Part shown: piece after piece, positions 4,418 to 47,428 of the stretch
Numbering within the stretch: position 1 is the first letter of the stretch
Layout: each line of letters starts with the position of its first letter
Origin: Paraspadella gotoi
Taxonomy: Eukaryota; Animalia; Chaetognatha
Assembly (NCBI GenBank): GCA_051294375.1
Contig: CM119267.1
Span: 10,410,406-10,474,405 of the forward strand
Length of the DNA: 64,000 bases
Direction of reading: 5' to 3'
The notes under the pieces: model-generated
What the model saw: only the letters and a program-made list of their open reading frames with translations
Told to the model about the DNA's origin: nothing
Database searches by the model: none
Translations under genes and position numbers: made by a program

Positions 4418-4448
<31 letters not shown>

Positions 4449-10964: not shown

Positions 10965-10995
<31 letters not shown>

Positions 10996-14882: not shown

Positions 14883-14946
<64 letters not shown>

Positions 14947-15075: not shown

Positions 15076-15140
<65 letters not shown>

Positions 15141-18490: not shown

Positions 18491-20196
18491 AGAGAACGAA
18501 AACTCGACATTTTCAGTGAGAACGATGACGACGTTCGGACGACGATATTCGCGACGACGAGCGACGTCACTTGTTTCTTTCGTCGCCGAGAAGAGAGAAT
18601 AGTCACGTGACTCAGTTGGAAAATAAAAGAGAAACGTTCCATCGACGACCGGGGATCCGTTCCCGCCAAACGAGAGATTGAGAGAGCAGAGAGGAGGATT
18701 GGAAGGATGGGGAAGCGAAGAGAGGAAGCAGCGGAAGGAATAAGAGGGAGAATGTGGGGAAAAAAAGTAGGAGAGGAGATAATGAGAAAGATTGGAATAG
18801 TGAAAGAGAGGGACATAAGGATTGAAGAAAGGAAATAAGGGAAAAATAGGATTGAAAGAAGGGAAAATAGGGAAAAATTAAGGATTGAAAGGGAAAATAA
18901 GAGGAAATATGATTGAAGAAAGGAAAATAAAGATGAAGAAATGGAAAATAAAGGGAAAATAAGATTGAAGAAAGGGAGAAATAGGGGGAATGTGAAGAAG
19001 TGAAGAAAACAGAGAAAATGATGAGGGAAGGAGCAGAGGCTGGTGGGATAAGAAGATACTGATTGGTATAGCAGTGATGATTGGACTTGTGAAAGAAAAT
19101 TATAAGGAAGTACACTCAGCGTCAAAAAATAAGTTTTTGCTATTCTTTTGTTTATCTGCGAAAGATTATGATTTCCATCTCTTATCTATAATATTATTCA
19201 ACTATCTGATAACTTCTTTATATATGGTTGATATAAGTTATTTGAAACTGTCCCGAAAAGCGTCTTGTTTCGTTGCAAAGCCCGCGAAAAATGATTTTAA
19301 AAAATGAGAACAAGTTGAGGGTTAATTAAAAAAATCTCCAGTATTCAAATGCAAGGAATAAGAAGAGGAGAGAGAGAGAGAGAGAGAGAGAAGGAGAGAG
19401 AAGAGATACTCTCGGTAAGGCGGAAATATCGATTAATATTCTCTCTTCGTGCAGAATTACAGTCGGATGCGGTCCCCGATTTCTGCGGAGGAGAGATTTA
19501 TTCGACGAGAATAAGAAGAAGAATAAGAAAGAAAGACAGAAGAGACAACGACAACAACAAAATCTTTTTCTTCGCGAGGAACTCACGTTTTGCGAAGGTG
19601 ACTTGTGGAAGGGGGGGGACGGGGGTGGTGGAGGGGGAGTCAGGCAAGGTGAGATAGGAGAGAGAAGCAGGAGAAATAAGACGGGATAAAATCTGGCCTG
19701 GTTCCACAGATTTTTTGGTTGAATTGTTTTGCGCCGTAGGCGATGGCGTTTGGCAGGTTGAAGTATGTAGTGGTAGATTGTAGTATGTACGTATAAAGTA
19801 TCAATTGTAGAATTTTTAATAGCGTAACGATTACGATAATGAAACGTATGTTTATTATAAAATCGGTTGATAGTTTTACGTATTAATTATTTTAAATTAC
19901 AGTTTTTGAATAAATTATACGATATTGATCCTTTCTAGTCGTTACGTTTGTAGTTTAAAGGATGAAAATTTTGTTAATGTTTCATTAACGATTTATTTTT
20001 TGTATTATAACGGACATGTTTTGGCTTTCGTGCAAGCCTTCTCGGCGTAAACAGTTGTTATAATTTTGACAAAAATATTTGTAGTAGTTATCAGCGTGTT
20101 GCACTCAAAACTAAAAAAAGAAAATGTAAACTAAAGAAAAGATTTTGTTTGGAGGTCGGGAGTGATCCTCGACGGTTAGTGACAGGGAAAGACTGC

Positions 20197-20246
<50 letters not shown>

Positions 20247-20387
20247 GAGAGAGAGAAGAAGAGAAGAGAATGAGAAAATGACCCACGTAATGTGGGCCGA
20301 TGCTTCACCGATCCGAGCGCGAGCCATCGAAGAGGTGAGTTGAGGAAGAGAAAATTAGGTGAACGTGAAAGGTGAAAATGACTGAGA

Positions 20388-20432
<45 letters not shown>

Positions 20433-20920
20433 CGAGAGAGAGGAGAGAGAGAGAGAGAGAGAGACGGATGTCAGGTGTGGTGAAGTAGAAGTAGAGAGAT
20501 AGGTGCGCGAATATTCTGGTGATCGCTGATTGAGGATTATTATGTTTATATATAGTCTATCTCTGAGTGTTGAAACTAAGGATGAGAGACTTACTTCTTT
20601 TTTTCTGGACGCTCTCTGCTCGCTGAGAGAGAGAAATGTGGATATGAGATTGGGACGAGAGGTCTCTGCCTTCTTTCTGGAGTTGTTTTTTTCGTTTTTT
20701 ATTTTAGTTCGGTCTGGAGGAGGATAGAATTACCTGGTTTTATGTGTAACAAGTCGAGAAAGTTCGTGTGGATAGTGTGTGCGGAGAGGAAGGAGGGGAG
20801 GGGAAGACAGATCTTTAAAAAAAAATAATTTTAACCAGATTGTCACACGATGGATAGCCGCGACGTCGGCTCGGCCATTCTGTTGTCAGAGCGTGAGACG
20901 AAGAGAGAGAGAGAGAGAGC

Positions 20921-27150: not shown

Positions 27151-28349
27151 ATTAATTAAGGAAAGTGAAGAATAAAAGAAAAAGGAGGGGTCGGTAGAGA
27201 TATCATGTAATCTATGAACACTTAGTATGTTTTGTTTGATTGGGAAAAGAAGTGTGAAGGAGTGGAAGAAATAAGTTGAAATTTAATTTTATGTTGCAAC
27301 TCTCGAGTGCGCTACGAGACGTAAGTAACAGGGCAAAAGTTGGGCTAGTTTGAAGGAGGGGATAAGGTGAGGCCACAAAATCCCTGTCTCCGTTGGAAGG
27401 ATTGAAGGCCCTAAATTTAAATTACACGATCTTCTTGGTGCCGGGGGGTCATTAAATCGGAGCAGAAGCTGTTTATTGATTTGAGGGGTAGAGAGGGTGC
27501 CTTGGCAGGAACGTATTCTAAGAGAGGAGGAAGGGGCCGGGGTGTTTTTCTTTTCTTTTTTCTTTTGAAAATATGTTTTCCGGGTGGTTGTTAGAAAATT
27601 TTTTATCTCTTTTTTACATTTGGAAAAAGCGTTTTTTTTTTCTCCTGGTCGGGGGCGGGTGTTCTGGGTCGACGTGGCCTTAATGTCGATGGAAATATCA
27701 AGAAAGTAGTCAAGGGACAATGAATGAAGTTCCTTGTACACAAAAAATTATCTACTTCACAGCAGATATCGGTTTTCCTAGGAAATTCATACGAACTTTG
27801 AACCTAATAAATTATTTTATTTTAGTCATTTGCCAAAATATGTAACAGGTTTCGGATGTCTTTTTCTAAGTAAAGAAAAATGGGTACGATGTAACCATCG
27901 CTGAAGAAAGGACCTTGTAGAGATGGAACATTCGGTCTGAATTGAAATGGGTTTTGTCTCATCGTTTTTTAAAATTTTCTTATTTGATATTCTATGATAT
28001 ACGTAAGTTGTATTCTAATCGACAAATTTTTAGTAATCAATATATTTTTGTTATCTGAGTGTCTAACAGTAATCTCGATTTAACTTAATAACAATTTTTA
28101 ATTGACCTAAATTTTGTGATAATGGTCAAAATTGATCATCCTGATCTCAGGTCCTTGACCGGGGTCATCAAACCCCGTCCACTTGACTGACACCCTTCAC
28201 GATCGAAGCCATCTCGCTGGAGATAATCAAAACTGGCACCTTCTCTTCTGACATCATCAATACTGGCACCGAGTGGCACCCTTTTCACTGGCACGCCCTA
28301 TCTCCATTCCACGTGGCGCTTGTCGGGCGCCGTCCTTATCTCGACTCAC

Positions 28350-28373
28350 CACCTGCCAACGTTGAAACCGGTT
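28350..28373 (-). CDS. Candidate 24-nt microexon of an unidentified minus-strand gene
   Basis: The minus strand reads CACTAAG (branch-like), a (CT)n tract, then TTTCTTTCCAG|AACCGGTTTCAACGTTGGCAGGTG|GTGAGT. The length preserves frame. Confidence 0.5.
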
Positions 28374-28387
28374 CTGGAAAGAAATAA

Positions 28388-28428
<41 letters not shown>

Positions 28429-28932
28429 CTTAGTGCAGTTCCAGATGGTTATAGGTAATAAAAGTAGAAGCTCAAAGTTGGGGGACAAAAAAAAAAATTC
28501 AACTCATTTCATCCAAATCATTTACATAATGCTGGAAGTATAAAACCACGATGTGAGAGATTAAAAGTTCACTTTTTAAATCAAATTTTAGAAGAAAAAA
28601 AGTCAAAAAATCAGTTGAAGGAATTTTTAAGGGTAGAAATAATTCCATGCTGCTCGTTGCCTTGTTGCTTCGTGACTCGACGACCATGGGCGTTGCGACA
28701 CACGTTTCCAACCCCAACCTCGGCCTCGCCGTTACCACTTCGGTACCGTCTCTACCGCCGCGCCCCCTTATCCAATTTCCTTCGCCACCATCCACGGCCG
28801 AAACGAGACGAGGGAGAAGATCGGCGCTGCGGAACAATAAAATGGCGGGAAAGGAGAAATGGGAGAGAGAGATGAGAACTGATAACCGGGTGAGGAATGG
28901 AATTGGCGTCGTACTTTTTGAAGAGAGGGAGG

Positions 28933-28996
<64 letters not shown>

Positions 28997-29345
28997 CAAA
29001 GACGGTCTGTTCAAACTTGAGATAAAATTCAAGTTTGTCGATTGATATAAAAGGAACAGTAAAAAGATGCAATTTATGTTAAATTGTGAAATGCATATTT
29101 TGACAACACAACACGTTGACAACATTGTATTTTTTGGGGCACAATCTCTTTTTCTATATACGAGCGACGTCGAAGACGCCGCTTCGCCGAAATAGACGCC
29201 GCGTCTATTATTACCTTTTGTGCGCGAGATTGAGAACGACGAACGAATGTCACCCAAGGGACAATCACAAACGTCAGAGTTTGCGATCTGCTATTTTTCG
29301 AAATGCACCTGAAAAGAATGAGTGACATTGTACATAAAGGGATGT

Positions 29346-30070
29346 TGTACAAGCTCGAATTGAAGAATTGAAAAAAGGAGACTGATTTTTAGAAAATAAA
29401 TTCGTTGGCTGAAAAAGAAAAAAGAAAAAAGTTCTGATCAGATAACTAGAACGCTCTCTAATTTGCTATCTAACTAATACACTTGAGTCTATAGTCTATA
29501 GTTGTTAAAGAGTTTATAATGATTTTTATCTGAATTGAGCCCTGACCTTTTATTTTTTAATGGCTCAAATATCTGAATTTAAAGTTTAATTGAATGACTC
29601 CAATAGTTCTGTTTAAAGCCTCTAATTGGTTGAATTTTATACATTGAATTTGAATATCTGGTCTCTCATTGGTTATTAATAACTAGTAGATGTTTTGATT
29701 TGTATTCTTAAAATGTGAACTCTCCTCTCATTGGTTGTTATAATGTTGTCTTCGTATATAAAAGGAGAATAAATTCTTAAATTTTGGGAGATTCCTCTGA
29801 GACCATCAGGTATTAAATGATATATGTGAAATTACTTGAATATGTTAATTAATTTTAAGCTTTTATGTAGCTTTGAGCTGTTGCTGCGTCTCGGCCCTGC
29901 TCCTACTGTTGCTGCATTTTGGCTATTGCTTATCTCTGTCATGCTGATGAGTGATGAACGTCCTTCAATGATTATTGGATATTGAATACTTAATAAAGTC
30001 ATTATTCTATTTTATCTTTTGATATATGGATTGAGTTGATATTAAGTCGAGATTAAGCGCTGCTCAAACA
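29346..30070 (+). mobile_element. Candidate solo LTR
   Basis: TGT...ACA termini with ATGT on both flanks (possible 4-bp TSD). Internal ATTGG (CCAAT) boxes, TATATAAAAG at ~29755 and AATAAA at ~29992. CpG-poor and microsatellite-free, unlike the flanks. The ends are tentative. Confidence 0.4.
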
Positions 30071-31524
30071 ATGTTCTCATCTGAAACTGAGAAACCCCCC
30101 CAAGGAATCTTCTACAATAGTGAAAATGAGTTTTAAAGAGATGTAAATTTGTGCCATTTTTCCTAGTTCTGTCAGTACTACTAATGCAGTTGCAGTCACT
30201 TCCACTCCAGTTTAATTACATGACAACCTCCCTCCATCCGTTTGCAATTAATACGAATGGAGGCTGAGAGAGAGAGACGGTCTTAATTAACACAACGTTG
30301 GTGAAATGAAACCCACGTAAACGAGGTAATCGAAACGACTAAGGAAAAAAGGAGAATAAAAATGGAAAAAAGGAAATAAATAAATTGAATGGCGGAGATA
30401 TATTTCGCGTCTTTTGTCTTCGAATTACGACGAATTCGAATTCTTGGCGCCAAAATTTATTTTTAAAAATTTATTACAAAGAGCGTTGGAAGGAAAATGT
30501 GGCGCCGCTATTAAGAAATTTACGGCGACGCTAACGAAAACTGTCTTCGCTGGGCATGACGCCTAATGAGAAAGAGAAAAAGAAAAAAGATTCGCGCGAC
30601 AGAAGAAAAAATGTTCGTCGTAAAACGTCATTTCACATAGACATCTAGAGCATTGATGAGTTAGAAAAAGAAAAGAAATGAGATATTCTTAACTATAGAC
30701 TCGGTTGCATGAAAAATAACCTTTTTAAAAAAATGTGCATAAAATTTATTACAATCGGTCATGTGGTTTAAGAGATATAATTTTTGACATTGAGTGTTCC
30801 AAAATATGAAGGGAAAATGGAATTTAATTTAAAAGCTTCAGAATCATTAGTCATCGTATCTTTCAATAATTTTGAAATTATTATTTAGGGATCTGGGTTA
30901 ATCTACTACAGGAAATACAAAATATTAGAAAGAAGTTTAGTCTAAAATTAATCAGATTTCTCTACGTTCAGCTTTGCTGTGGAGTGCTTCGTTTTTTAAA
31001 AATCACCGCTCCTGAACGGATTGCCCGATTTTTATAAATTTGATTAAAGTCTGATATGTGGCACGATTTTTTTGCACATTACTGTATTTTTACGTTTTGT
31101 TTTTATGGATTATAGCAGAGTGAGAGAGAGCAGTGACTAAGAAAAAAAAAATCTTGGTCATCTTCGGTAATGGACGCTCCTGTTTCTTATGTACGTCGAG
31201 GATTTTATGGTGTTCGCAGGCGAGGACCATTGCTGTAATCGACGTGGACATTCTGAAGTGGATATAGAGAAAGACAGAGAGAGAGAGAATAGCGCCGAAA
31301 GGAAAGCGGTTTAGTACAAAAATAACCGTCTTTGACAACGTTAGTTGACTTTATCGTGAAAAATTTCCTCCGCACCCCCCCCAAAAATAATAAACTAATA
31401 AACAATGACTACATTTAAACTCTACATTTAAACTTGGAAATTCATGATTACTTCAAGTTCAATTTATCGGAGAAAAACAAGGCAAAAACCAGTTTATTTG
31501 AAATCGTTCAAAATCAAAGGGCCA

Positions 31525-31590
31525 TATTTAAGCCAATGAGGACACGAGGACATGAGAGGGCACGAGGACACGTCGCCCAGTATTAAATGT
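31525..31590 (+). promoter_or_regulatory. Putative ODC-like promoter: CCAAT box, repeated GGACACG/CACGAG motifs, TATA-like TATTAAA
   Basis: AGCCAATGAG at 31531-31540, then GAGGACACGAGGACATGAGAGGGCACGAGGACACG, then TATTAAA at 31581, about 120 nt upstream of the ATG. Confidence 0.4.
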
Positions 31591-31699
31591 CAATTATATT
31601 TTGCCGGTGTTTTTCAACAATTATTTTTGGGCTTGATCTGGTCAATTAATTTTTTTTAAGTCAACATTAGAATTGGTTTAAAATTCAGCTCCTTGCACT

Positions 31700-31899
31700 A
31701 TGGCCACACTCGAAATGCTCGTTTGAAAAAAACCGACCCATAACGCAAAGAAAGTTAAACGCGGTGAAAAAGTTTTTGACGTCTGAGAAAGATCCACACG
31801 ATGGCGCCATTCTCGTGGTGGAACCGGAAGTAGCGTCGAAGCGGATTCACAAGTGGCGCCACTTGATGCCGCGCGTTCGACCTTTTATATGCCGTAAAG
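31700..31899 (+). CDS. ODC: ODC-like exon 1 (MATLEMSFEK...DGAILVVEPEVASKRIHKWRHLMPRVRPFYAVK), ending at the PLP-binding Lys
   Basis: ATG at 31700 and donor AAG|GTGAGC at 31900. The second copy reads TTT TAT GCC GTA AAG (FYAVK) in frame. Confidence 0.8.
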
Positions 31900-34732
31900 G
31901 TGAGCAACTTAGCATTTGTTATTTAATATCTTTTCCCTTGTCACACGCATTACAGGATTATGAAGCGTTATTATTTGAAACATTTCTCATATCTCAAATT
32001 CTTCTCTTTTTAGTTTTTCCCTAATAGTTTTACACTTTGTCTAAGGTGTGTTTAACTTGTAAGCCTCAATATGTAGGTTTAAAGAATGCACATTTCGTTT
32101 TATTTATTTGCTTATTTTTTAACTTTTTTTAAAACTTTTTTTACTTTTTTAAACTTTTTTAAACTTTTTAACTTTTTTATCCTTCAAAATATGTAATATA
32201 TATAAGAATATAAGAATAAGTATTCCCCGATCTAATACTTAAGGGAGTGGTTTTTCTTACAATTGAAACATTCTTTGAAATATTTTCCACTTCATTGATA
32301 GGGAGAGCCAGGTACTGCTGGGAGTAAATAAACGGGACTGGAGAGTGTCTTGATTGAAAGCTTACAGGGACCTGCTATGTCATTATCTTGTAAGAGTGAT
32401 GGAGGCCTTAAACCACCAAAGCCTGTCCAATAGGGCGTTGAAAAATAACGAAATATAACAAATCAAGTGAGGTACATAGCTATTTTGGTGTAATAAAGTA
32501 TGTAGAATTCGATGATGATAACTATTTTTTTGTATAGTCTCATCTTCTTTGTCGGAAATGGCGGATTTTTGCAGCATATAAGGTGCTATTAAAATGGAGC
32601 AAACATTGTAGAGTATAGGAAACTCAAATTATTAAGATTTTTATAAAAGCCATATTTAACTTACATAATTAGAAAATAAGACCCATATAAATATTTTGTT
32701 AAGTTTATTTACAAATTTTATATTTTAATAATAGTTTCTTAGCTATATTTATTAATAATAAAAATAAAAAATAAGCTAAAATAAAAAAATAAAAATTTTA
32801 AAACCGGATTTGAATTCCTTACAAAAAGGTTGATATAAGAAAGTATAATCCATTTTTAAAATTTTTCATTAAGTAGGTTAAAAATATTAAAAACTTATTT
32901 TTGTTTATTTTAAATTTTTGGCTTAAAATTATAGTTTTTCTGAATTTTGACTAACTTAATGTATAATTTTATATATAAAAATTATATTTTCTTATATCAA
33001 CTAATTTTTACTCATAATATAATAAATATAGTTAACTAATTTTTATAAAACATAAAATTTAGAAATAAACTTACCAAAATATTTTTAATAAGTCTTTATT
33101 TTTATGTTTCAAAAGCTTTTAATAATTTGATTTATCATAACTTAAAATGGTTTTTGCTATTTTATAACAATTTTATATACATTAAAAACCGTCATTTCCG
33201 ACAAAAAAAGATAAAATTATACAAAAAATGGTCATCACCATCGAATTCTACAGACTACACTACATTACACTAAAATAGCTATGTACCTCACTGTTGATAT
33301 TGTTTATAATTGGTTATTGTTGATTTTCAACGTTATGCTGCTCGCAACAGTCCAGGGGGTTCACAAGAAAGCCTTATTGTATTAATATGAAATGGAGATA
33401 ATTTTTTATATTGGTTGTACCAATTTCATAAACAACACATCGACAACTGAATCCTTAGAATCCCCAGGCGAATCCAGACCCGCGAGTCATCGAGTCGCTC
33501 ATCCGGTGTGGTTCCGGTTTCGACTGCGCTTCCAAGAAGGAAATAGATCTCGTTCTCCAAATGGGAGCTCAAGTAAAAGATGTCGTCTTCTCCCATCCGG
33601 CAAAAATCGATTCGCACGTCTCTCACGCCGCACAAAAAGGTGTAATTAAATTTGCCTCGATGTAAACATGATGAATGATACATAAGTATTAATAAAATCA
33701 ATATTTTATTCAAGGTGTGAACCTCCTGGTGTTCGACAGTCTGGAGGAAGTGAAAAAGATGGTCCAACTTCATCCTAATTGCGAAGCGGTTCTTCGCATC
33801 ACGACCGGAAATCAGAAGAGTCTCATTCAATACGACGAAAAATACGGCGCCGATTCTAGCGAGATTCCGGAACTGATGAGAGCGTGCAAAGATTTGGGTA
33901 TAGTACTAAATGTAGGACGATACATGTATCACTATCATTATCAGTATGATGTTTCATCTTAAATTCGCTTTCCAATTCTCGCTGCTTAAAACTAGTTACT
34001 TTAAGGAGTGAACCTCGTCGGAATTCACTTTCACGTGGGCAGCGCTGGCGATAACTCGCAAGCCTTCACCGACGCGCTGTCAAAAACCGCTGAACTTTTC
34101 AAGATGGCGGCGTCCATGGGACACGAGATGCGATTGGTCGACATCGGAGGAGGATTTCCAGGTCTCGACGATGAGGATCCGGGTATCGAAGTCTACGCGG
34201 AAGCGATTAACGAAGGGCTAAGGATGTACTTTCCCGACCTCGCCGTCGAAGTAATTGCCGAACCGGGAAGGTAAGTTTGGAGATTAAAAAATAAATAAAT
34301 AAAACGAGAACATTAAGGAATTAACCAAGAAAACTTACAAACCGACGTCAAACAAGGTTCGTCGCTTGCCGTACAACCGGAACACTATTAAAGATCGTGA
34401 ATAAGAGGCTGAAACGAGAGACCGAAGACCAAATCGTCGCTCATTACTTTTTCAATGACGGAATTTACGGAAATCTCCTCTACCTTCGCTACTTTCCTCG
34501 CGGCGACGTCGTCTTCTTCGTCAAGTCGCCCGTCGACGCGTCCGTGACGACTCGTTCGGTGCTTTGGGGCGCTACTTGTCCGTCTTACGACTTCTTCGGC
34601 AAGGGCGTTCAATGGCCGGAACTCTGCGTCGGCGACGGCGTCTTTTTCGACGACACTGGCGCCTACGGTGCCTCCGTGGCGAGTAACTTCAACGGCTACG
34701 GCAAGGACTTGACCAAGTTTATCTATATATAA
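31700..34732 (+). CDS. ODC: Ornithine decarboxylase-family (fold-type III PLP decarboxylase) gene, 5 exons: 31700-31899, 33468-33639, 33715-33897, 34006-34270, 34357-34732; ~397 aa after removing two 1-nt insertions in exon 1
   Basis: Manual splicing at GT..AG introns gives the ODC motifs in order: PRVRPF[YAVK]ANPD, GFDCAS, FDS, VLRI, KYGA, FHVGS, DIGGGFPG, IAEPGR, NDGIYG, WGATC, GAY, FNG. Intron phases are mutually consistent. The two exon-1 frameshifts (~31718, ~31887) are absent at the same positions in the second copy. Family assignment is firm, but ornithine specificity is not. Confidence 0.92.
32436..33332. mobile_element. Non-autonomous foldback/MITE-like DNA element in ODC intron 1
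   Basis: Imperfect inverted arms of ~135-150 bp: GTGAGGTACATAGCTATTTTGGTGTAAT...TGTAGAATTCGATG...TTTGTCGGAAATGGCGG (32436-32570) versus CCGTCATTTCCGACAAA...CATCGAATTCTACA...ATTACACTAAAATAGCTATGTACCTCAC (33184-33332). The interior is very AT-rich and non-coding. Confidence 0.75.
33468..33639 (+). CDS. ODC: ODC-like exon 2 (ANPDPRVIESLIRCGSGFDCASKKEIDLVLQMGAQVKDVVFSHPAKIDSHVSHAAQK)
   Basis: CCCCAG acceptor and the GFDCAS motif. This frame is missing from the ORF track because it has no early start codon. Confidence 0.9.
33715..33897 (+). CDS. ODC: ODC-like exon 3 (VNLLVFDSLEEVKK...VLRI...EKYGA...KDL)
   Basis: TTCAAG acceptor and GTATAG donor. Aligns with ODC TFDS-E-K, LRI and KFG. Confidence 0.9.
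34006..34270 (+). CDS. ODC: ODC-like exon 4 (VGIHFHVGS...DIGGGFPG...IAEPGR)
   Basis: HVGS, the glycine loop and EPGR motifs. Canonical AG|GTAAGT donor at 34271. Confidence 0.93.
34357..34732 (+). CDS. ODC: ODC-like exon 5, C-terminal beta domain (YFFNDGIYG...WGATCPSYD...GAY...FNGY)
   Basis: AACAAG acceptor, in frame with ORF 34397-34732, ending in TAA and followed by an AT-rich 3' region. Confidence 0.92.
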
Positions 34733-36234
34733 TTTTATTTATTATTTAGTGCTCAAAATTTTTGTTATTTTTATTTAATCTAGAAATCTAGAAATAGATT
34801 TTTAGACATTGTTATCTCTAACAATTATTTAATTTGTTAAAGCCATATTTTGTTTCATTGTATTACGAATTTACGATTAAATCTGTCCTTACACGATCCC
34901 AATTATAAATTATCAAAAGTAACTTACTACTGAATTCGCATTGATCCCGCATATATGTCGTATAATTCGATGACGCAATCATCCCTAGCGTTTTACTACG
35001 GGTTTAGGAAATAAATCACCAACGCTCGATATTTACGCTCACGTCTTTACACTAAAATCTAAAAAGAATAAAAGAAAATAAAGTGACGAAAAAAAATAAA
35101 ATAAAAAATAAAATGTTGGAAATGTCTTTCCGATTTATCCATTTCCAATTTTCGAAACTGAAAGGGCCGACGCCCACCTACTTTTTTTTTCTTTCTTTTT
35201 TCCCCCTTTTTTTTTCGAGGCAGTTTTTCTTTCACCTCCGGTTTTTTTCCTCTTTTTTTTCCTTTCCCTTTTCTGTCCCCCTTTTTTTTCGGAGAAACGG
35301 TACGAGACATGATTTCTTTTTTCTTTTTTGGTCCTATTTTCTACTTTTCTCTCTTTCCATATCTTTCGCTCTACTATTTTCTGTTTTGACAATTCTAAAT
35401 CTTTCCAGATAAACCTTGTTTTGGTAATTCGAGTAGAAAGACTTTCTTTTAATCTCGAAAAGCTTTTTTTCCTTATCGGCAAAGTTTACCAAAAAAAAAA
35501 TAGTCAAAAAACTTTCTTTTGTCCCATAAATTTGGTTATTCCGTTTGTGTCCCAAAAGCAACGTCAGCGGAAAAGTAAACAAACGCGGTACACACTCAAG
35601 CTTCCACGACATACTTAAGACTACCTTCAGTGTGCAAATTCGTCACACGCAATCGAAACGCGCTTTTCAAGCCTCCAACTCCCTAAAGAGCGACACGTGC
35701 GAGCATCTCAATTCAATAGCGCCATACAAAAAAATGCGCGCCCTCTATTAGTTCGTGCTAGTCGAAGCAGGCGCAGCCTGGAGCAGTAACTCGGCCGGAA
35801 GGAGCCAAGCCCAACCAATCTCGCCGCAATTCGCCCGCGGGCGTGGAACCGGAAGGGGCGCTAGCGTGACGCCGCAACCTCGACGCTCGCGAAATTGGGT
35901 TTTGGCACAAAAATTCCTATAAAATCGGAAAAAAACTGGGAGAGACCAATTTGATTAGGCGGAGACGACGACGACAATGACGAGGGCGCACGACCAAAAA
36001 AAAGAAAATAACTATTCCTTGAAGAAATGTTTTCATTCAGATGAAGAGGGATGCCACATTTTGGGAGAGAGTCAGGCGAGGGTCTTGGTTTGAAGTAAGG
36101 AAAACAATCAAGGCAGCAGAGCGAGCGCACTCTTGGCGCCACCGTCTTATCGGTTTTTTTCTTATTAACATCGACTATAGAGAGGAAAAAAAAAAGGAAG
36201 GCCGAATGGATTTATATTTACTTTCGGTAAAGTA

Positions 36235-36280
<46 letters not shown>

Positions 36281-38456
36281 GTCCCCTTAGCCAAATCTCT
36301 CGAGCCTTCGAGACTCGATATACATTATGCATAGAAACGGAGAACTTCGGCGCTCGGAAGTGTATAACCCGGGGTGGGACCTGGTGGGTGCAGGAGATGG
36401 GGAGAGGAAGGGTGGGTGAGGGCAGAAGAAATGGGTTTGGGGCAGGACGGTAGGGGGCGAGATTAAAAGAGAAGATTCGACTTATTTTAAGATCCGCCTA
36501 ATCGTGATTAAAAAGGAAGGATAGAGAGAAAAGGAAAGTAAGGTATTTGCACGCATTTCGAACCCAGAGTGAACGTCTAAAGTTCACTCGCTGGTCGCTC
36601 ACCTTTTTACCGTTCACCGCGAGGTTATCGTCGAGCCCCTTTACTCGGCCACGCCCATATTTGATTAACCTTGACCGGAACGCGTGCGCCATCGCGTCCC
36701 TGGCGTCGATCGCCAACTAGAGCACGCAGGTCAGCAACGCCATCGTCGCGGTTTAAGGGCGAAACGTCGAGGGCATCAATTTGAAGCCGAGTTATTCCCG
36801 AGTCTTACGAGGCGGCGATTGCGAGGCCAATGAGCGCCACTTGATGCCAGAATGTTAAGCCTTTCGCGACTGTTTGGGCGAAAGTTTCTCGCAATAAATA
36901 ACGATGATGATGACGAATATTACCGAACTTAGTATTTAAATCTCAAGACTAGAGCGTGAAGTAGGTAGAATGAATTTTTGTAAATATTTGAAATTATTCT
37001 CCATAAATTATGTATGTTGGGAAGTTATTTTCAAAAGAATTTTCCTCTTTGATTTTTCTTTTAATACCTTCTTGTCCCCTATAACCTTACCTCGGGCCAG
37101 CTAAATCACCCTACCAACTCACCGTAGTTGTTTTCTCCGTCTTTACTTTCTCTCCTGTTTTCGCCCCCTCCCCCCCTTCTTCCACTCTCCCGACGCCATC
37201 TTCCCACCCACGCGTCATTCCCAAATTCCCCCCCCTCTCTCTCTCTTCCCCCCATTTGCGCCATCGCTCGCGATTTTTCGTCGCAAGAGATCCCGGCCTT
37301 GACCCCGAGGGTAAACAGGGCGGGGGGAAATTGGGGGGAAGAGAAAAAAGAGGTCAAAGCAAAAGAAAAAGAAAAAAAAAACAGCGTAACAAAGGGGGGA
37401 AAAGGAGGAAAACAAAAAAGAAAAAAACAAAGGAAAAACAAAAGGTAAAAGGAAGATGAAAAAAAAAAACAACAAAAGGATAAAGGAAGCCTCGTCTCTC
37501 GGAAGAATAGTCGCCTTTGTTCTTGTTTACGACCAACGCTTTCGCTCTGAAGATAAAAAAAAAAAAGATAATTTTTTTTTGCTCCGGGAGATGAGCTTGT
37601 TTGTTTTTTCATAACGTTTCTGCAGGTTGTTTACGGTTAAAATAAGGTTGGCGAATGTTTTATTTTTTTCAAAGCGAGAATATTATCATCGATTAAAAAA
37701 CTTTTAAAAAAGTCCAGTCATCAGTTATCAGTTATCAGTTATTACACTTTTACAGATGTGAAAGGCGAGAAAAGTAAACAAAAAACTCATTTTTTTGGCG
37801 GGAAATCGAAACGCGGTTCTCTCACTCTCGCCAGCTGACGAACCGTAGTCCTTTGAATATCTGGGTTGGTTTTTCGAATCGGGTGACAATAGGACGAGGA
37901 GGGGACGCATTAGGGTTCGTCGGGTTCCAATGATAATTTTTATCTACTTAGTCTAAATTTATCTTTGTCTGAATATTTTCTTTTATTTTTATATTTTAAG
38001 TGATTTCAGTGATTTTTTTCCCCTTTTTTTTTATCGAGGATCACGATTCCAATTTGTTTTCCCTCTTTATCGCTCGAATCCAATATTGACATATCTTGTA
38101 AGTCTTTTTCCCCTCAAGTCTTTTTTATTTCTTTCTCTTTACTTTCAACTCTTTTTTATTTTTATTTTTTTTATTAGTTTTTTTATTATTTCTTTTGTAC
38201 ACCTCTCTCTCCCATTCTTATCCTACAACTCACTCTCAGTACAACAAGATCCCTGCTCCGACTCCCCCCCTCTCTCTCTCTCTTCTCTCTCTCTCGTCTT
38301 CTCTCTCTCTCTCTCCTCTCTCATCTCTCTCTCTCATTTTCAATTTTAATCGAAGCATTAATTTTAAATTCCATCCTTCGCCGCCGGCGGGGGAAAAGTT
38401 TAATCTCGGTCACGTGACCTCAATTAGTCTTGGAAAATCGCGAGAAAGACCAATCC

Positions 38457-38496
<40 letters not shown>

Positions 38497-39850
38497 TCAT
38501 CTCCTCTCCTCTATCTCTCTCTCTCTCTCCTCATACATCATCTTCTTACAAAAAGGTTACATAATTCAATCTCTCGCCTTTTCCCTCCAGGAGTCAAAAG
38601 TTATCCGTCAGTGGAACACGAAATCTTCCTTTGGGACTCAGAACCGTTTTTTTTTTATCCTTTGAATCTTCTTCGTCTCTCGGACTCAATTTTTGCGTTT
38701 GCGTCTTTCGTAGTTTTCGTGATTCATCGTTCCTTTTATGGCGTCGTCCTCGTAAAAGACATTGTCGTCGTCGTCGTTGTCGNNNNNNNNNNNNNNNNNN
38801 NNNNNNNCTATATGACTCATGGTTGTCATTGAAAAATAACTCACTTGTTTATAAAAAATGGTGCATAACCCAATCTTATTACAATCGTCATGTGGTTTAA
38901 GAGATATAATTGACAATTGAGTGTCCAAAAATATGAAGGAACATGGATATTTTAAATTTAAAAGCTTCAAGAATCATTAGTCATCGTATCTTCATAATTT
39001 GAATTATTAATTTAGGGATCTGGGTTATCTACTACAGGAAATACAAATATTAAGAAAGAAGTTTTAGTCTAAAATTAATCAGATTTCTCTAAACGTCAGC
39101 TTTGCTGTGGAGCTGCTTCGTTTTTTTAAAAATCACCGCTCCTGAACGGATTGCCCGATTTTTAATAATTTGATTAAAGTCTGATAATGTGGCACGATTT
39201 TTTTGCACAATTTACTGTATTTTTTACGTTTGTTTTTATGGATTATAGCAGAGTGAGAGAGAGGCAGTGAATAAGAAAAAAAAAATCTTGGTCATCTTCG
39301 GTAATGGACGCTCCTGTTTCTTATGTACAGTCGAGGATTTTATGGTGTTCGCAGGCGAGGACCATTGCTGTAATCGACGTGGACATTCTGAAAAGTGGAT
39401 ATAAGAGAAAAGACAGAGAGAGAGAGAATAGCGCCGAAAGGAAAAGCGGTTTTATACGCAAAAATAACCGTCTTTGACAACGTTAGTTGACTTTATCGTG
39501 AAATAAATTTCCTCCGCACCCCCCCCCAAAAATAATAACTAAATAAACATGACTACATTTAAACTCTACATTTAAACTTGGAAATTCAGATTACTTTCAA
39601 GTTCAATTTATCGGAGAAAAACAAAGAAAAACCAGTTATTTGGAATCGGGTTCAATCAAAGGGCCATATTTAAGCCAATGAGGACACGAAGGACCAATGA
39701 GAGGGCACGAAGGACACGTCGCCCAAGTAATTAAATGTCAATTATATTTTCCGGTGTTTTTCAAAATTATTTTTGGGCTTGATCTGGTCAACTTAATTTT
39801 TTTTAAGTCAACATTAGAATTGGTTTATTAAAATTCAGCTCCTTGCACTC

Positions 39851-42800
39851 ATGGCCACACTCCGAAATGTCGCTTGAAAAAAACCGACCCCATAAAACGC
39901 AAAAGAATTAAACCGCGGTGAAAGAAGTTTTTGACGTCTGAGAAAAAGATCCAAACGATGGCGCCATCTCCGTGGTGGAACGGAAGTAGCGTCGAAGCGA
40001 TTCAACAAGTGGCGCACTTGATGCCGCGCGTTCGACCTTTTTATGCCGTAAAGGTGAGCAACTTAAAGCAATTTGTTTTATTATATATCATTTTCCCTGT
40101 CACAGCGCATTAACAGGATTATGAAGCGTTATTAAATTTGAAACATTTTCCATATCTCCAAATTTTCTTCTCTTTTTATGTTTCCTAATAAGTTTTACAC
40201 TTTGTCTAAGGTGTGTTTAACTATGTAAGCCTCAAAATATGTTAGGTTTAAAGAATGCCACATTTCGTTTTATTTATTTGCTTATTTTTTAAACTTTTTT
40301 TAAACTTTTTTTTACTTTTTTTAAACTTTTTTAAAAAACTTTTAACTTTTTTAAATCCTTCAAAAAATATGTTAATAATATAAGAATATAAGAATAAAGT
40401 ATTCCCCGATCTAATACTTAAGGGAGAGTGGGTCTTTCTTACAATTGAAACATCCTTTGAAATATTTTTCCACTCATTGATAGGGAAAGCCAGGTACTCT
40501 GGGATGTAAAATAAACGGGACTGAAGTGGTCTTGATTGAAAGCTTAACAGGGACCTGCTATGTCAATTATCTTGTAAGAGTGATGGAGGCCTTAAACCAC
40601 CAAAGCCCTGTCCAATATGGCGTTGAAAAATAACGAAATATAACAAAATCAAGTGAGGTACATAGCTATTTTGGTGTAATAAAGTAATGTAGATATTCGA
40701 TGATGATAACTATTTTTTTTGTATAGTCTCATCTCCTTTGTCGGAAATGGCGGATTTTTGCAGCATATAGGTGCTATTAAAAATGGAGCAAAACATTGTT
40801 AGAGTAATAGGAAACTCAAATTATTAAGATTTTATAAAAGCCATATTTACTTACATAATTGAAAATAAAGACCCATATAAATACTTTTGTTAAGTTTTAT
40901 TTACAAATTTTATATTTTAATAATTAGTTTCTTAGCTATATTTATTAATAAAAAAAATAAAAAATAAGCTAAAATAAAAAAATAAAAATTTTTAAAACAG
41001 GATTTGAATTCCTTACAAAAAAGTTGATATATAGAGTATAATCCATTTTTAAAAAATTCTTTCATTAAGTAGGTTAAAAATAAATATATTAAAAACTATT
41101 TTTGTTTATTTTTAAATTTTTGGCTAAAAATTAATAGTTTTTCTGAATTTTGACTAACTTAATGATATAATTTTGATATAAAAATTATTTTTCTTATATC
41201 AACTAATTTTTACTCATAATTATTTAATAAATATAGTTAACTAATTTTTATAAAACATAAAATTTAGAAATAACTTACCAAAATTATTTTTTAATAAGTC
41301 TTTAATTTTTATGTTTCAAAAGCTTTTAATAATTTGATTTATCATAAACTTAAAATGGGTTTTTGCCTATTTTAAATAACAATTTTTATATACATTAAAA
41401 ACCGTCATTTCCGACAAAAAAGATAAAATTGATACAAAAAATGGTGCAATCACCATCGAATTCTTACAAGACTACATTACACTAAAATAGCTATGTACCT
41501 CACTTGATTTGTTATATTTTGTTTAATTTCTCAACGCTCTAACTGTCCAAAGTCAGGGGCAAGATAGCTAATTTATTAAATGAATGGATAATTTTTAATA
41601 ATTGGTTGTACAATTTCATAAACAACACATCGACAACATGAAATCCTTAGAACCCAGGCCGTATCCAGACCACGCGAAAGTCATCGAGTCGCTCACCGGT
41701 GTGGTTCCGGTTTCGACTGCCGCTTCCAAGAAAGGAAATAGATCTCGTTCTCCAAATGGGAGCTCAAAGTAAAAGATGTCGTCTTCTTCCCATCCGGAAA
41801 AAAATCGATTCGCGAAACGTCTCTCAGCGCCGACAAAAAGGTGTAGATTAAATTTGCCTCGATGTAAACATGATGAATGATACATAAGTATTAATAAAAT
41901 CAATATTTTTATTCAGGTGTGAACCTCCTGGTTGTTCGACAGTCTGGAGGAAAGTGAAAAAGATGGTCCAACTTCATCCTAATTGCGAAGGCGGTTCTTC
42001 GCAATCACGACCGGAAATCAGAAAGTCTCATTCATACGACGAAAAATACGGCGCCGAATTCTAGCGAGATTCCGGACTGAATGAGAGCGTCAAGATTTGG
42101 GGTATAAGTACTAATGTCACGGACGATACATGTATCACTATATTAATCAGTATGATGTTTCATCTTAAATTTCGCTTCCAATTTCGCTGCTTAAAACTAG
42201 TTACTTTAAGGAGTGACAACCTCGGTCCGGAAATCAGCCTTCCACGTGGGCAGCGCTGGCAGATACCCACATCGCAAAAGCCTTCACCGATCGCGCTGTC
42301 AAAAACCGCTGAACTTTTCAGATGGCGGCGTCCATGGGACACGAGATGCGATTGGTCGACATCGGAGGGAAGGAATTTCCAGGTCCTCGAACGATGAGGA
42401 TCCGGGTATCGAAGTCTACGGCGGAAGCGATTAAACGAAGGGCTAAGGATGTACTTTCCGACCGCTCGCCGTCGAAAGTAATTGCCGAACGCGGAAGGTA
42501 AGTTTGGAGATTAAAAAAATAAATAAATAAAACGAGAACATTAAGGAATTAACCAAGAAAAACTAACGACTCAAACAAGGTTCGTTCGCTTGCCGTACAA
42601 CCGGAACATACTATTAAGAATCGTGAATAAGAGGCTGAAACGAAGAGACCGAAAGACCAAAATCGTCGCTCATTACTTTTTCATGAAACGGAATTTTACG
42701 GAATCTCCTCTACCTTCGCTACTTTCCTCGCGCGAGTCGTCTTCTTCCATAGTCGCCCGTCGACGCGTCCGTGACGACTGCGTTCGGTGCTTTTGGGCGC

Positions 42801-42956
42801 TACTTGTCGTCTACGACTTTTGGCAGGGCGTTCATGGCCGGAACTCAGCGTCGGCGACGGCGTCTTTTTCGACGACACTGGCGCCCTAACGGTGCCTCCG
42901 TGGCGAGTAACTTCAACGCTACGGGCAAGGACTATGACCAAGTTATCTATATATAA
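39851..42956 (+). pseudogene. Second, heavily frameshifted copy of the ODC-like gene (probably an error-rich assembly duplicate rather than a true pseudogene)
   Basis: Same exons, introns and flanks as 31700-34732, with many 1-2 nt indels and few substitutions. The block starts directly after the 25-N gap at 38783-38807. Confidence 0.8.
40621..41536. mobile_element. Same foldback/MITE-like element in the duplicate ODC copy
   Basis: Same inverted arms. The right arm here (CCTCACTTGATTTGTTATATTTT...TCAACG) matches the left arm more closely than in copy 1. Confidence 0.7.
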
Positions 42957-45900
42957 TTTTTATTTTATTATTTTGTGCTCAAAATTTTTGTTATTTTTAT
43001 TTTAAATCTAGAAATCATAAGAATACATTTTTAGACATTGTTATCTCTAACATTATTTAATTTTGTTTAAAGCTTTTGTTCTATAGGACAGTAATTACGA
43101 AGTGTAATGCGTCTACACGTATCCCAATTTCAAATTTAGGTCATGTACTTACTACTGAATGCATTGGATCAGGCGTAATTGTCGAATTTCATGGCGGTAA
43201 CGGCCGCCCCAACTCCACGACCGCTAAGACCGTCCTTTGGTTGAGGCGATGACGGTCTCATGGCGCTAAAGGTATGATAGTCACCAAAAGCATTTTGTCT
43301 GTATACTTTACGATAACTGCCTTAAGCCCATTATACATCAAAAGTAATTCTAATCCAGATCCGCTTAGTCGTATATTTAATGCGCAATTATAGGTTTACA
43401 GGTTACGAATAAAAACCGTGCGATTTTATATAGTCTTACACAGATCTAAAAGAAACAGAAAATAAAGTACGAAAAAAAAAATAAAATGTTGGAATGTCTT
43501 TTCCGATTTATCCATTTCAATTTTCCGAAACTGAAAGGGCCGACGCCCACGCTTTTTTTTCTTTCTTTTTCCCGCCTTTTTTTTTCGAAAGGCAGTTTTT
43601 TCTTGTCAACCTCGGTTTTTTTTCCCTCTTTTTTTTTTCGCTTTCCCTTTTCTGTCCCCTTTTTTTTTTCGGAAGAAACGGTACGAGCATGATTTCCTTT
43701 TTTTCTTTTTTGGTCCATTTTCTACTTTTCTCTCTTTCCATATCTTTCGCTGCTACTAATTCTTCTGTTTTTGACAATTCTAAATCTTTTCAGAATAAAA
43801 CCTGTTTTGGTAATTCGAGTAGAAAGACTTTCTTTAATCTCGAAAAGCTTTTTTCCTTATCGCAAAGTTTACAAAAAAAAAATAGTAAAAACTTTCTTTT
43901 GTCTCATAAATATTTGGTTATTCGCGTTTGTGTGTCCCAAAAGCAACGTCCAGCGGAAAAAAGTAAACAAAACGCGGTAAACCAACTCAAGCTTCCACGA
44001 CATACTTAAGACTAACCTTCAGTGTGCAAATTAGTCCACGCAATCCGAAACGCAGCCTTTTGCAGCTGCACAACTCCGCAAGAGCGATACGTGCGAGCAT
44101 CTCAATTCAATAGCGCCATACAAAAAAAAAATGCGCGCCCTCTATTAAGTTCGTGCTAGTCGAAGCCAAGCCGCAGCCTGGAGCAGTAACTGCTGGGCGG
44201 AAGGAGCCAACGAACCATCTCGCCAGCAAATTTCGCCCGCGGGCGTGGAACCGGAAAGGGTGCGCTTAGCGTGACGGCCGCAACCTCGACGCTCGCGAAA
44301 GTTGGGTTTTGGCAACCAAAAAATTCCTATAAAATCGGAAAAAAAAAAACTGGAGAGACAAATTTGATTAGTACGGAAAGAAACGAACGACGACAAATGA
44401 ACGAGGGCGCACGACCAAAAAAAAGAAAAAATAACTATTCCTTTGAAGAGAAATGTTTTCATTCAGATGAAAGAGGGATGCCCACATTTTGGGAAGAGAG
44501 TCAGGCGAGGGTTTGGTTTTGAAAGTAAGGAAAACAATCAAGGCAGCAGAGCGAGCGCAACTCTTGGCGCCACAGTCTTATCGGTTTTTTTCTTATTAAC
44601 ATCGACTATAGAGAGGAAAAAAAAAAGGAAGGCCGAATGGATTTATATTTACTTTCGGTAAAGTATACAACTCTCTCTCTCTCTTTCTCTTCTTCTCTGG
44701 TCCCCTTAAGCCAAATCTTCGAGCCTTCGAGACTCGATATACATTATGCATAGAAACGGAGAACTTCGGCGTCGAAGTGTATAACCCGGGGTGGGACCTG
44801 GGTGGTGCAGGAGATGGAGGAGAGGAGGGTGGGTGAGGGGAGAAGAAATGGGTTTGGGGGTGACGGTAGGGGGCGAGATTAAAAGAGAAGATTGCGACTT
44901 ATTTTAAGATCCGCCTAATCGTGATTAAAAAGGAAGGATAGAGAGAAAAGGAAAGTAAGGTATTTACGCATTTCGAACCCAGAGTGAACGTCTAAAGTTC
45001 ACTCGCTGGTCGCTCACCTTTTTACCGTTCACTCCGAGAGTTATCGTCGAGCCCCTTTATCGGCCACGCCCATATTTGATTAACCTTGACCGAAGGCGTG
45101 CGCCATCGCGACCTGGCGTTCGATCGCCAACTAGAGCACGCAGGTCAGCAACGCCCTCGTCGCGGTTAAGGGCAAAACGCGCTCGAGGGCATCAATTTAA
45201 GCCGAGTTATTCCCGAGTCTTAGAGGCGGCGATTGCGAGGCCATGTGGCGCCACTTGATGCCAGATGTTAAAGCCTTTCGACGACTTTTGGGCGAAAGTT
45301 TCTCGCAATCAAATAACGACGACGATGAAGAGACGAAATATTACCGAACTTTAAAGTATTTAAATCTCAAGACAAGAGCGTGAAGTAGGTAGAAGAATTT
45401 TTTGTAAATATTTGAAATTATTCTCCATAAATTATGTATGTTGGAAGTTATTTTCAAAAGAATTTTCTCTTTGATTTTTCTTTTAATACCTTCTTTCCCC
45501 TATAACCTTACCTCGGGCCAGCTAAATACCCTACCAACTCACCGTCGTTGTTTTTCTCCTCTTTACTTTCTCTCCTGTTTTCGCCCCCTCCCCTTCTTCC
45601 ACCTCTCCAGACGCCATCTTCCCACCCACGCGTCATCCAAATTCCCCCCCCTCTCTCTCTCTCTTCCCCCCATTTGCGCCATCGCTCGCGATTTTTTCGT
45701 CGCAAGAGATCCCGGCCTTGACCCCGAGGGTAACAGGGCGGGGGAAATGGGGGAAGAGAGAAAAAAGAGGTCAAAGCAAAAGAAAAAGAAAAAAAAAACA
45801 AGCTAACAAAGGGGGGAAAAGGAGGAACAAAAAAGAAAAAACAAGGAAAACAAAGGTAAGGAAGATGAAAAAAAAAAAAACAACAGAAAAGGATAAGGAA

Positions 45901-46358
45901 GCCTCGTCTCTCGGAAGAATAGCGCCTTTGTTCTTGTTTACGACCAACGCTTTCGCTCTGAAGATAAAAAAAAAAAAAGATAATTTTTTTTTTGCTCCGG
46001 GAGATGAGCTTGGTTTTTTTTTCATAACGTTTCTGCAGGTTTTGTTACGGTTAAAATAAGGTTGGCGAATGTTTTTTTTTTTTCAAAGCGGAATATTATC
46101 ATCGATTAAAACTTTTAAAAAAGTCCAGTCCAACAGTTTATTAGTTATCAGTTATTACATTTTAGCAGATGTGAAAGGCGAGAAAAAGTAAACAAAAACT
46201 CAATTTTTTTGGCTGGAATCGAAACGCGGTTCTCTCCTCTCGCCAGCTGACGAACCGTAGTCCTTTGAATATCTGGGTGTGGTTTTTCCGGATCGGGTGA
46301 CAATAGGAGAGGGGGGACGCATTAGGGTTCGTCGGGTTCCATGATAATTTTTATCCAG

Positions 46359-46388
46359 GCGAGTTGCCGACTCCAAACTATAACATGA
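46359..46388 (+). CDS. Candidate 30-nt microexon (xELPTPNYNMx) of an unidentified plus-strand gene
   Basis: TTTTTATCCAG|GCGAGTTGCCGACTCCAAACTATAACATGA|GTAAGA. The length preserves frame. Confidence 0.45.
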   Translation, partial: ASCRLQTIT

Positions 46389-46729
46389 GTAAGAACGATT
46401 TCAATTTTCCCTCTACTTAGTCTAAATTTATCTTTGTCTGAATATTTTTTTTTATTTTTATATTTTTTAAGTGATTTCAGTGATTTTTTCCCCTTTTTTT
46501 TTTATCGAGATCACGAATTCAATTTGTTTTCCCTCTTTATCGCTCGAATCCAATATTGCATATCTTGTAAGTCTTTTTCCCCTCAAGTCTTTTTTATTTC
46601 TTTCTTTTACTTCAACTCTTTTTATTTTTATTTTTTTTTATAGTTTTTTATTATTTCTTTGTACACCTCTCTCTCCCTTCTTATCCTACATACTCACTCT
46701 CAGTACAACAAGATCCCTGCTCCGACTCC

Positions 46730-46763
<34 letters not shown>

Positions 46764-47333: not shown

Positions 47334-47391
47334 TTAGTCCTCGTTTCTTTTTCTTTTCTTTATTTTTCGACTCTTTTCAGAAAGAGGCAGA

Positions 47392-47428
<37 letters not shown>

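What the first reader, a model, noticed from the sequence alone, without database searches (positions are those of the whole stretch)
34357..34732. ODC-family enzyme with intact catalytic machinery but a rebuilt, non-acidic substrate pocket: candidate new amino-acid decarboxylase
Seen in the sequence: the reconstructed protein keeps the equivalents of human ODC K69 (YAVK), D88, E94, D134, R154, K169, H197, S200, G235-237, E274, R277, Y323, C360, D364, Y389 and F397. However, GSFNCILYDH reads GNLLYLRYFP (D332->F, codon 34493-34495) and WGPTCDGLD reads WGATCPSYD (D361->P, codon 34580-34582). The second copy also lacks Asp codons at both sites, so these are not single-read errors. Established: D332 and D361 bind the delta-amine of ornithine; antizyme inhibitors usually degrade PLP or catalytic residues; and mouse Gm853, an ODC paralogue, is a leucine decarboxylase, so this fold can switch to neutral substrates. 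Inference: this is an active decarboxylase for a hydrophobic or aromatic substrate that makes a non-polyamine amine, or otherwise an unusual antizyme inhibitor.
Basis: partly seen in the sequence, partly recalled or inferred. Interest (0 to 1): 0.82.

Follow-up and report, generated by a model that had tools for sequence, protein, structure and literature searches.

The report
Ornithine decarboxylase copy with aromatic pocket
This spliced eukaryotic gene encodes a distant copy of the first enzyme of polyamine synthesis that keeps all its catalytic residues but has aromatic residues and a proline where the acids that grip ornithine normally sit, so it likely turns an uncharged amino acid into a different amine.

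Summary
The five-exon gene (31700-34732, +) encodes a eukaryote-type ODC homologue with Phe at position 332 and Pro at 361. One DNA run and intron-less contigs from three runs of two further studies show no other letter at either codon. The 'second copy' is a noisy assembly duplicate, not independent evidence. The protein keeps 18 of 18 catalytic, PLP and dimer residues but only 52 of 89 other near-invariant columns, which points to selection for catalysis. Pocket positions 328/331/332/363 are all aromatic; none of 181 homologues has more than two. Best reading (0.5): an active PLP decarboxylase for an uncharged amino acid. FigC is the better precedent. Novelty is limited: altered ODC paralogues recur in animals, with double-acid loss in frog, hagfish and clam proteins here, and the two closest relatives have lost R277. 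Substrate, activity, antizyme binding and a separate canonical ODC were not testable. New variant of a known kind; interest 0.5.

The parts
31700..31899 (+). Exon 1 (first coding exon; ATG 31700 inferred; ends in the YAVK motif with K69). Noisy in the window: one extra base near 31887 and probably one more frame error near the start
33468..33639 (+). Exon 2: barrel, D88, E94, K115; A111S, N112H
   Evidence: PF02784
33715..33897 (+). Exon 3: D134, R154, K169, G171 and the altered lid loop 164-167
33834..33836 (+). Asp167 codon (Ser/Gly in most ODCs); the only acid at this position among 180 sequences, a possible stand-in acid
34006..34270 (+). Exon 4: H197, S200, D233, G235-237, E274, G276 and the start of the R277 codon
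34357..34732 (+). Exon 5: C-terminal sheet domain with Y323, specificity helix, C360 loop, G387, Y389, F397, stop codon; no C-terminal tail beyond about residue 407
   Evidence: PF00278
34481..34495 (+). Specificity helix codons Y328 (34481-83), Y331 (34490-92), F332 (34493-95) in place of C328, Y331, D332
34577..34591 (+). Catalytic loop C360-P361-S362-Y363-D364; Pro in place of D361
39851..42956 (+). Second, indel-ridden copy of the five exons inside the duplicate block 38808-47260; most likely an assembly duplicate, not a second gene

Best explanation
The gene encodes a diverged eukaryote-type ornithine decarboxylase homologue with an intact PLP site and an acid-free, aromatic substrate pocket, and it is likely an active decarboxylase that turns an uncharged amino acid into a monoamine rather than ornithine into putrescine. 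Shown: gene structure, splicing, the residues. Inferred mechanism, from the family: a head-to-tail homodimer held by K169-D364; K69 holds PLP; H197, S200, G235-237, E274, R277 and Y389 position it; CO2 leaves towards F397; C360 of the other subunit protonates the product. Inferred specificity: with Y328, Y331, F332, P361 and Y363 there is no carboxylate at the usual positions to pair with a distal amine, and the bulkier side chains would shorten and grease the pocket, so a small or medium aliphatic side chain (Leu, Met, Val or smaller) is my first guess and an aromatic one the second. The substrate is not shown.
For: Codons and three GT-AG joints confirmed in runs of three studies. 18 of 18 catalytic/PLP/dimer residues kept against 52 of 89 other columns that are at least 95% invariant in 117 typical ODCs, Fisher p = 0.0002; 13 of 13 against 35 of 70 without Gly/Pro. 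No acid at 328, 331, 332 or 361: true of 3 of 181 homologues; four aromatics at 328/331/332/363: 0 of 181, maximum two. Where homologues lose D332 they often gain an acid one turn earlier at 328 (6 of 20 against 0 of 161; one of the six is a register shift), and this protein does not. Helix register and fold kept in the model, mean pLDDT 88.9. The specificity helix and the Cys loop are the variable determinants of this fold, and FigC is an active enzyme with both acids replaced (Y331, M355; PMC7857480 section 8). An animal ODC paralogue can decarboxylate a neutral amino acid (Gm853; PMC6313458 passage).
Against: No assay or full-length model. The two closest relatives have lost R277 and S200, and one also C360 (P0127 14 of 18, P0128 16 of 18), so the subfamily tolerates decay. 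The retention test is rough: the 18 residues are conserved across the whole fold, the reference set is redundant, and D332 and D361 were left out of the key set (18 of 20 with them). D332 is also listed as a PLP and dimer residue (PMC5518511), and a Drosophila ODC with D332Y is called non-functional in PMC3543441 (an assertion there, no assay seen). Gm853 switched substrate without losing either Asp. Asp167 could supply a replacement acid. Pro at 361 may shift the catalytic Cys.
Confidence: 0.5

Rival explanations
1. A catalytically weak or dead regulatory paralogue: an antizyme inhibitor, or a subunit that pairs with a canonical ODC and damps or alters it.
For: ODC-like proteins with lost key residues arose repeatedly and were proposed to be regulators (Ivanov 2010, seen only as cited in PMC5574924 and PMC5518511). 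Relatives P0127 and P0128 carry R277T/S and S200T/C. This protein has A111S, a change seen in some antizyme inhibitors (PMC3543441), and Lys at 140 as in AZIN1 (PMC5518511).
Against: 18 of 18 catalytic residues kept over a long branch. Antizyme inhibitors keep D361 and an acid at 332 and lose PLP contacts and Y331 (PMC3543441): the reverse pattern. Only A124 is kept of the six antizyme-contact residues named in the passages read (124, 125, 129, 136, 137, 140), though position 140 varies freely among typical ODCs too.
Confidence: 0.2
2. It still decarboxylates a basic amino acid (ornithine, lysine, diaminobutyrate), weakly or through a relocated acid such as Asp167 or Glu168 on the lid loop.
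For: Asp167 is unique among 180 sequences. Entamoeba ODC has D361N, D332E and A111S and remains a low-efficiency ODC (PMC3543441). P0128 keeps D361 and gains D328, which suggests a basic substrate in the subfamily. A canonical ODC in this genome could not be looked for.
Against: Entamoeba ODC keeps an acid at 332; here neither helix nor Cys loop offers one. 165 of 181 homologues have two acids at the four pocket positions and 13 have one. The direction of the Asp167 side chain is unknown.
Confidence: 0.15
3. An active enzyme with another kind of substrate or outcome: a modified amino acid with an acylated or acidic distal group (FigC-like, with Arg330 as counter-charge), or decarboxylation followed by deamination to an aldehyde because Pro361 displaces Cys360.
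For: FigC has the same double loss and acts on N-citrylornithine; diaminopimelate decarboxylase uses a helix Arg for a distal carboxylate (PMC7857480 section 8). The helix here has an Arg at 330. That Cys360 mutants of ODC drift to side reactions is recalled, not checked here.
Against: Arg330 is not at one of the pocket-facing positions (328, 331, 332 by the FigC and DAPDC spacing); the protein groups with eukaryotic ODCs, not with the bacterial rows; no partner gene was seen beside it.
Confidence: 0.13
4. Sequencing artefact or pseudogene.
For: The assembly is noisy, exon 1 has frame errors and the duplicate copy is full of indels.
Against: Exons 2-5 are open over 331 codons and match contigs of four runs with at most one substitution; the junction to exon 1 is in frame in the spliced contigs.
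Confidence: 0.02

Closest known systems
Eukaryotic ornithine decarboxylase (PF02784 + PF00278; human/mouse ODC1, PDB 2on3, 2oo0, 7odc)
   Same: Best sequence matches among solved structures for exons 4 and 5, same domains, same fold of the sheet domain, 18 of the 20 key residues listed in PMC5518511.
   Different: D332F and D361P, aromatic 328 and 363, altered lid loop, about 35% identity to typical ODCs over exons 2-5, no C-terminal tail.
Mouse leucine decarboxylase Gm853/ODCrp
   Same: ODC paralogue with intact catalytic residues and a neutral substrate, not an antizyme inhibitor (PMC6313458, PMC5518511); Tyr three residues after the catalytic Cys (C338-D-A-Y-D342, PMC7671201).
   Different: Gm853 keeps both aspartates; no sign of orthology was tested, since no Gm853 sequence was among my proteins.
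FigC N-citrylornithine decarboxylase (PDB 7kh2)
   Same: Active fold-type III decarboxylase with an aromatic at the D332 position and a non-acidic residue after the catalytic Cys (PMC7857480 section 8).
   Different: Bacterial, in the DAPDC-side clade, enlarged pocket for a large acidic substrate; lower structural match (Z 11.8 against 13-15 for ODCs).
Antizyme inhibitors AZIN1/AZIN2
   Same: ODC homologues without ornithine activity; A111S and K140 are shared hints.
   Different: AZINs lose PLP contacts and Y331 and keep D361 with Glu at 332 (PMC3543441); here the PLP site is whole and the substrate acids are gone.
Uncharacterised animal ODC-like paralogues (P0132 frog Gastrophryne, P0188 hagfish Myxine, P0136/P0156 clam Mercenaria, P0197 spider, planarian ODC3-6)
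   Same: Non-acidic residues at both 332 and 361; P0132 keeps 18 of 18 catalytic residues; P0136 even has Cys-Pro.
   Different: They fall elsewhere in the tree and use other replacement residues; none has the four-aromatic pocket among the 181 near-full sequences.

Membership tests
Fold-type III (group IV) PLP decarboxylase, eukaryotic ODC-like | PF02784 barrel plus PF00278 sheet domain and ODC fold | tested here: met
Fold-type III (group IV) PLP decarboxylase, eukaryotic ODC-like | Groups with eukaryotic ODCs rather than bacterial ODC-like rows | tested here: met
   on the eukaryotic side of a branch with SH-aLRT 99 (four bacterial rows only; one row from a Verrucomicrobia-named cluster, P0294, also fell on that side); bacterial plasmid hits reach about 30% identity to P0127
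Ornithine decarboxylase (EC 4.1.1.17) | Catalytic, PLP and dimer residues K69, D88, E94, R154, K169, G171, H197, S200, G235-237, E274, R277, C360, D364, G387, Y389, F397 | tested here: met
   18 of 18
Ornithine decarboxylase (EC 4.1.1.17) | Acidic substrate anchors D332 and D361 | tested here: not met
   Phe and Pro
Ornithine decarboxylase (EC 4.1.1.17) | Ornithine to putrescine activity; homodimer | not testable with these tools
   needs an assay; the spliced protein could not be folded whole
Antizyme inhibitor | Loss of PLP-binding residues with D361 kept and Glu at 332 | tested here: not met
   against the description in PMC3543441
Antizyme inhibitor | Antizyme-binding element (117-140) and actual antizyme binding | tested here: inconclusive
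   A124 kept, K140 as in AZIN1, four other named contacts changed (PMC5518511); binding itself not tested
Leucine decarboxylase (Gm853) | All 20 ODC key residues kept, including D332 and D361 | tested here: not met
   PMC5518511, PMC7671201
Leucine decarboxylase (Gm853) | Orthology to Gm853 and leucine activity | not tested
   no Gm853 sequence was identified among the proteins fetched

The most novel reading that the evidence does not exclude
An animal lineage has independently turned ornithine decarboxylase into a dedicated decarboxylase for a neutral or aromatic amino acid by replacing both substrate acids with an aromatic cage, giving a route to a trace amine (isoamylamine-, phenethylamine- or tyramine-like) from the fold-type III scaffold instead of the usual group II enzymes; with P0127 and P0128 it forms a small radiating subfamily with a different pocket in each member.
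Probability: 0.4. Interest if true: 0.72.

Novelty: new variant of a known kind. Interest (0 to 1): 0.5.

Why it matters
In the papers I could read, only one animal ODC paralogue (mouse Gm853) has a demonstrated non-basic substrate, and it got there without touching the two aspartates. Paralogues with altered key residues have mostly been filed as dead or regulatory. This protein separates the two readings cleanly (PLP site whole, substrate acids gone), so one expression and substrate screen would test whether such 'inactive ODCs' are enzymes making unknown amines. The same double loss recurs in frog, hagfish and clam proteins annotated simply as ODC-like, so the answer would carry beyond this genome and would correct pathway annotation.

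Tried and rejected
No whole genome is held, so a canonical ODC or antizyme could not be sought; within the window only this locus matches. Word-based searches with exons 5 and 4 found only 3 and 4 distant proteins. Locus scans found nothing with exon 5 in metagenome contigs or with the P0127/P0128 alignment in genome, metagenome and viral contigs; these need exact patterns and do not span introns, so they show no absence. The ESM Atlas holds neither exon 5 nor P0127 and returned generic ODC clusters. No RNA holder was listed on record; X5 and X6 are guessed as DNA, yet give only intron-less contigs with no cover inside intron 3, so I read them as transcript data, and a processed retrocopy is not formally excluded. 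Bacterial origin: considered because three alphaproteobacterial-type hits share the YGNL motif; rejected on identity and tree. The deep position of the clade in both trees is weak (SH-aLRT 83) and likely reflects long branches. OLADO decarboxy-oxidases: rejected as a precedent, they are fold I (bioRxiv 10.1101/2024.06.04.597157, passages). No PPW-type upstream ORF motif next to the start (the motif is recalled, and upstream exons are unknown). No Rfam match in 28000-48000. Paper searches: 'ornithine decarboxylase' + 'D361A' gave 0; none of the 20 listed of 4,419 papers for chaetognath/ODC/polyamine held the word chaetognath; two searches gave nothing on animal fold-III enzymes for neutral substrates; a term look-up in PMC10762828 found nothing. 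No complex prediction was run. Supplements were not read; those of PMC5518511 and PMC7857480 may hold alignments that bear on the residue comparison.

Full report
The locus. The window is a gapped, noisy eukaryotic assembly with several near-duplicate blocks. The finding is the last of five coding exons on the + strand: 31700-31899, 33468-33639, 33715-33897, 34006-34270 and 34357-34732. Exons have 48-55% GC against 23-31% in the introns, all junctions are GT-AG, and exons 2-5 give 331 open codons. Contigs of runs X5, X6 (study P2) and X8 (study P3) skip exactly introns 2-4 and continue upstream into the last 30 bases of exon 1, in frame with the YAVK motif; run X1 (study P1, possibly the window's own sample) gives only intron-bearing contigs (4 of the 11 listed runs were laid). 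X5 and X6 are labelled DNA by guess but have no cover inside intron 3, so I read them as transcript data.

The observation. Codons 34493-95 (TTT) and 34580-82 (CCG) stand in X1, X5, X6 and X8 with no other letter listed. The exon aligns to mouse and human ODC without a gap from Y316, placing Phe at 332 and Pro at 361. The model of the exon (mean pLDDT 88.9) has its short helix at 327-331 and matches ODC-family sheet domains best. The duplicate at 39851-42956 differs by 83 indel events and 12 mismatches and has lost a base in the Pro codon.

How unusual. I aligned the protein with 181 near-full homologues: 121 from the relatives of a typical ODC (mostly) and 60 from the exhaustive search with exon 5 (enriched for divergent proteins); fragments and four bacterial rows were left out. 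D332 and D361 stand in 117 and 120 of the 121. Five of the 181 lack an acid at both sites; three lack one at all of 328, 331, 332 and 361; none has more than two aromatics at 328/331/332/363, where this protein has four. An acid at 328 appears in 6 of 20 sequences without an acid at 332 and in 0 of 161 with one (one of the six, P0010, is a register shift), which looks like compensation; this protein has Tyr there. It alone, of 180, has an acid at 167 on the lid loop. Pro after the catalytic Cys occurs once among 251 sequences including fragments, in a clam ODC-like protein.

Is the chemistry under selection? Of columns at least 95% invariant in 117 typical ODCs, the protein keeps 18 of 18 catalytic, PLP and dimer residues but 52 of 89 others (p = 0.0002). 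The test is rough: the key residues are the most conserved in the whole fold, the reference set is redundant, and the two lost acids were left out of the key set. It still argues against plain decay.

Relatives. The closest proteins are unnamed: P0127 (Logan, 41% over exons 2-5), P0128 (JGI, 35%) and a fragment, P0153. They share 26 residues found in under 10% of typical ODCs and form a clade with the window protein (FastTree 0.987; IQ-TREE C20 SH-aLRT 94 on 43 rows), on the eukaryotic side of the split from four bacterial rows. P0128 shares Y331-F332 but keeps D361 and gains D328; it has R277S and S200C. P0127 has D88E, S200T, R277T and C360M. So F332 may be old in the subfamily, P361 is private, and the relatives are more decayed than this protein, which counts against reading the whole subfamily as enzymes. 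Independent double losses occur in named animal proteins: frog P0132 (18 of 18 catalytic residues), hagfish P0188, clam P0136 and P0156, spider P0197. An earlier, unreviewed note calls this genome a likely arrow worm (e1-10588039); I did not test that. Another describes similar ODC copies in a springtail (e1-9935458); not tested.

What is known. D332 and D361 bind the distal amine (PMC11912471, PMC5518511; passages). The specificity helix and the Cys loop set substrate choice across the fold, and FigC is active with Y331 and M355 at these sites (PMC7857480; passages and section 8; PMC11792860, passages). Mouse Gm853 decarboxylates leucine and is no antizyme inhibitor (PMC6313458, passages; the original paper not seen), but it keeps all 20 key residues (PMC5518511, passages; PMC7671201, parts 2-3 of 4), so it shows that the scaffold can take a neutral substrate, not that these changes cause it. 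Antizyme inhibitors keep D361 and have Glu at 332 while losing PLP contacts; Entamoeba ODC with D332E and D361N is still a weak ODC; a Drosophila D332Y paralogue is called non-functional (PMC3543441, passages). ODC-like paralogues with altered key residues arose many times (Ivanov 2010, not seen, cited in PMC5574924, passages). My nine completed paper searches returned no description of this subfamily or of an animal enzyme with both acids lost; the library lacks most subscription papers.

Mechanism and odds. Shown: an intact, spliced gene with the whole PLP apparatus and an acid-free aromatic pocket. Inferred: a homodimeric decarboxylase, with K69 and C360 in their usual roles, acting on an uncharged side chain and releasing a monoamine (0.5). 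Rivals: regulatory or dead paralogue (0.2); basic substrate through Asp167 or at low efficiency (0.15); acylated or acidic substrate, or aldehyde-forming chemistry (0.13); artefact (0.02). It is not filed as an ODC, an antizyme inhibitor or a Gm853-type enzyme, since a defining feature fails for each; it is a member of the eukaryotic ODC-like fold-type III family. Whether the genome has a separate canonical ODC remains open.

Verdict. Observation confirmed; interpretation partly supported; new variant of a known kind. It is a clean, cheaply testable case of a recurrent but little-assayed phenomenon rather than a new kind of system: interest 0.5, rising to about 0.72 if a neutral or aromatic substrate is shown.

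Noticed in passing
window 801-5992 vs 7538-12393; 14031-15140 vs 19361-20456; 30693-38779 vs 38808-47260; 55849-56620 vs 57137-57938: Several neighbouring blocks are 87-94% identical with many gaps and often flank 25-N gaps: likely uncollapsed long-read duplicates, so 'second copies' in this assembly are not independent evidence.
   Followed up: partly
window 31687-31688: An AG after a T/A-rich tract 11 bases before the ATG looks like a splice acceptor; the spliced contigs carry about 170 to 1000 bases more 5' sequence than exon 1 holds, so upstream exons, a spliced leader or a joined neighbour are possible.
   Followed up: no
window 31090-31350, minus strand: A GC-richer stretch with an 86-residue open frame running away from the ODC-like gene, a possible head-to-head neighbour; no Pfam match above cut-off.
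   Followed up: partly
P0128, P0157, P0137, P0235, P0156: ODC-like proteins that lost D332 often carry Asp at 328, one helix turn earlier: a possible general compensation rule or a marker for a shorter basic substrate.
   Followed up: partly
P0132 (frog) and P0188 (hagfish): Two vertebrate ODC-like proteins without D332 and D361 group together (SH-aLRT 94); the frog record has two such domains in tandem. Possibly an undescribed vertebrate paralogue family.
   Followed up: no
P0197 and cluster members P0275-P0282: A spider ODC-like family with R277C and Cys-Cys at 360-361, conserved above 90% across Trichonephila, Nephila and Caerostris.
   Followed up: no
window 34709: T>A in run X8 (study P3), changing Leu to Met near the C-terminus; an allele outside the pocket.
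   Followed up: yes
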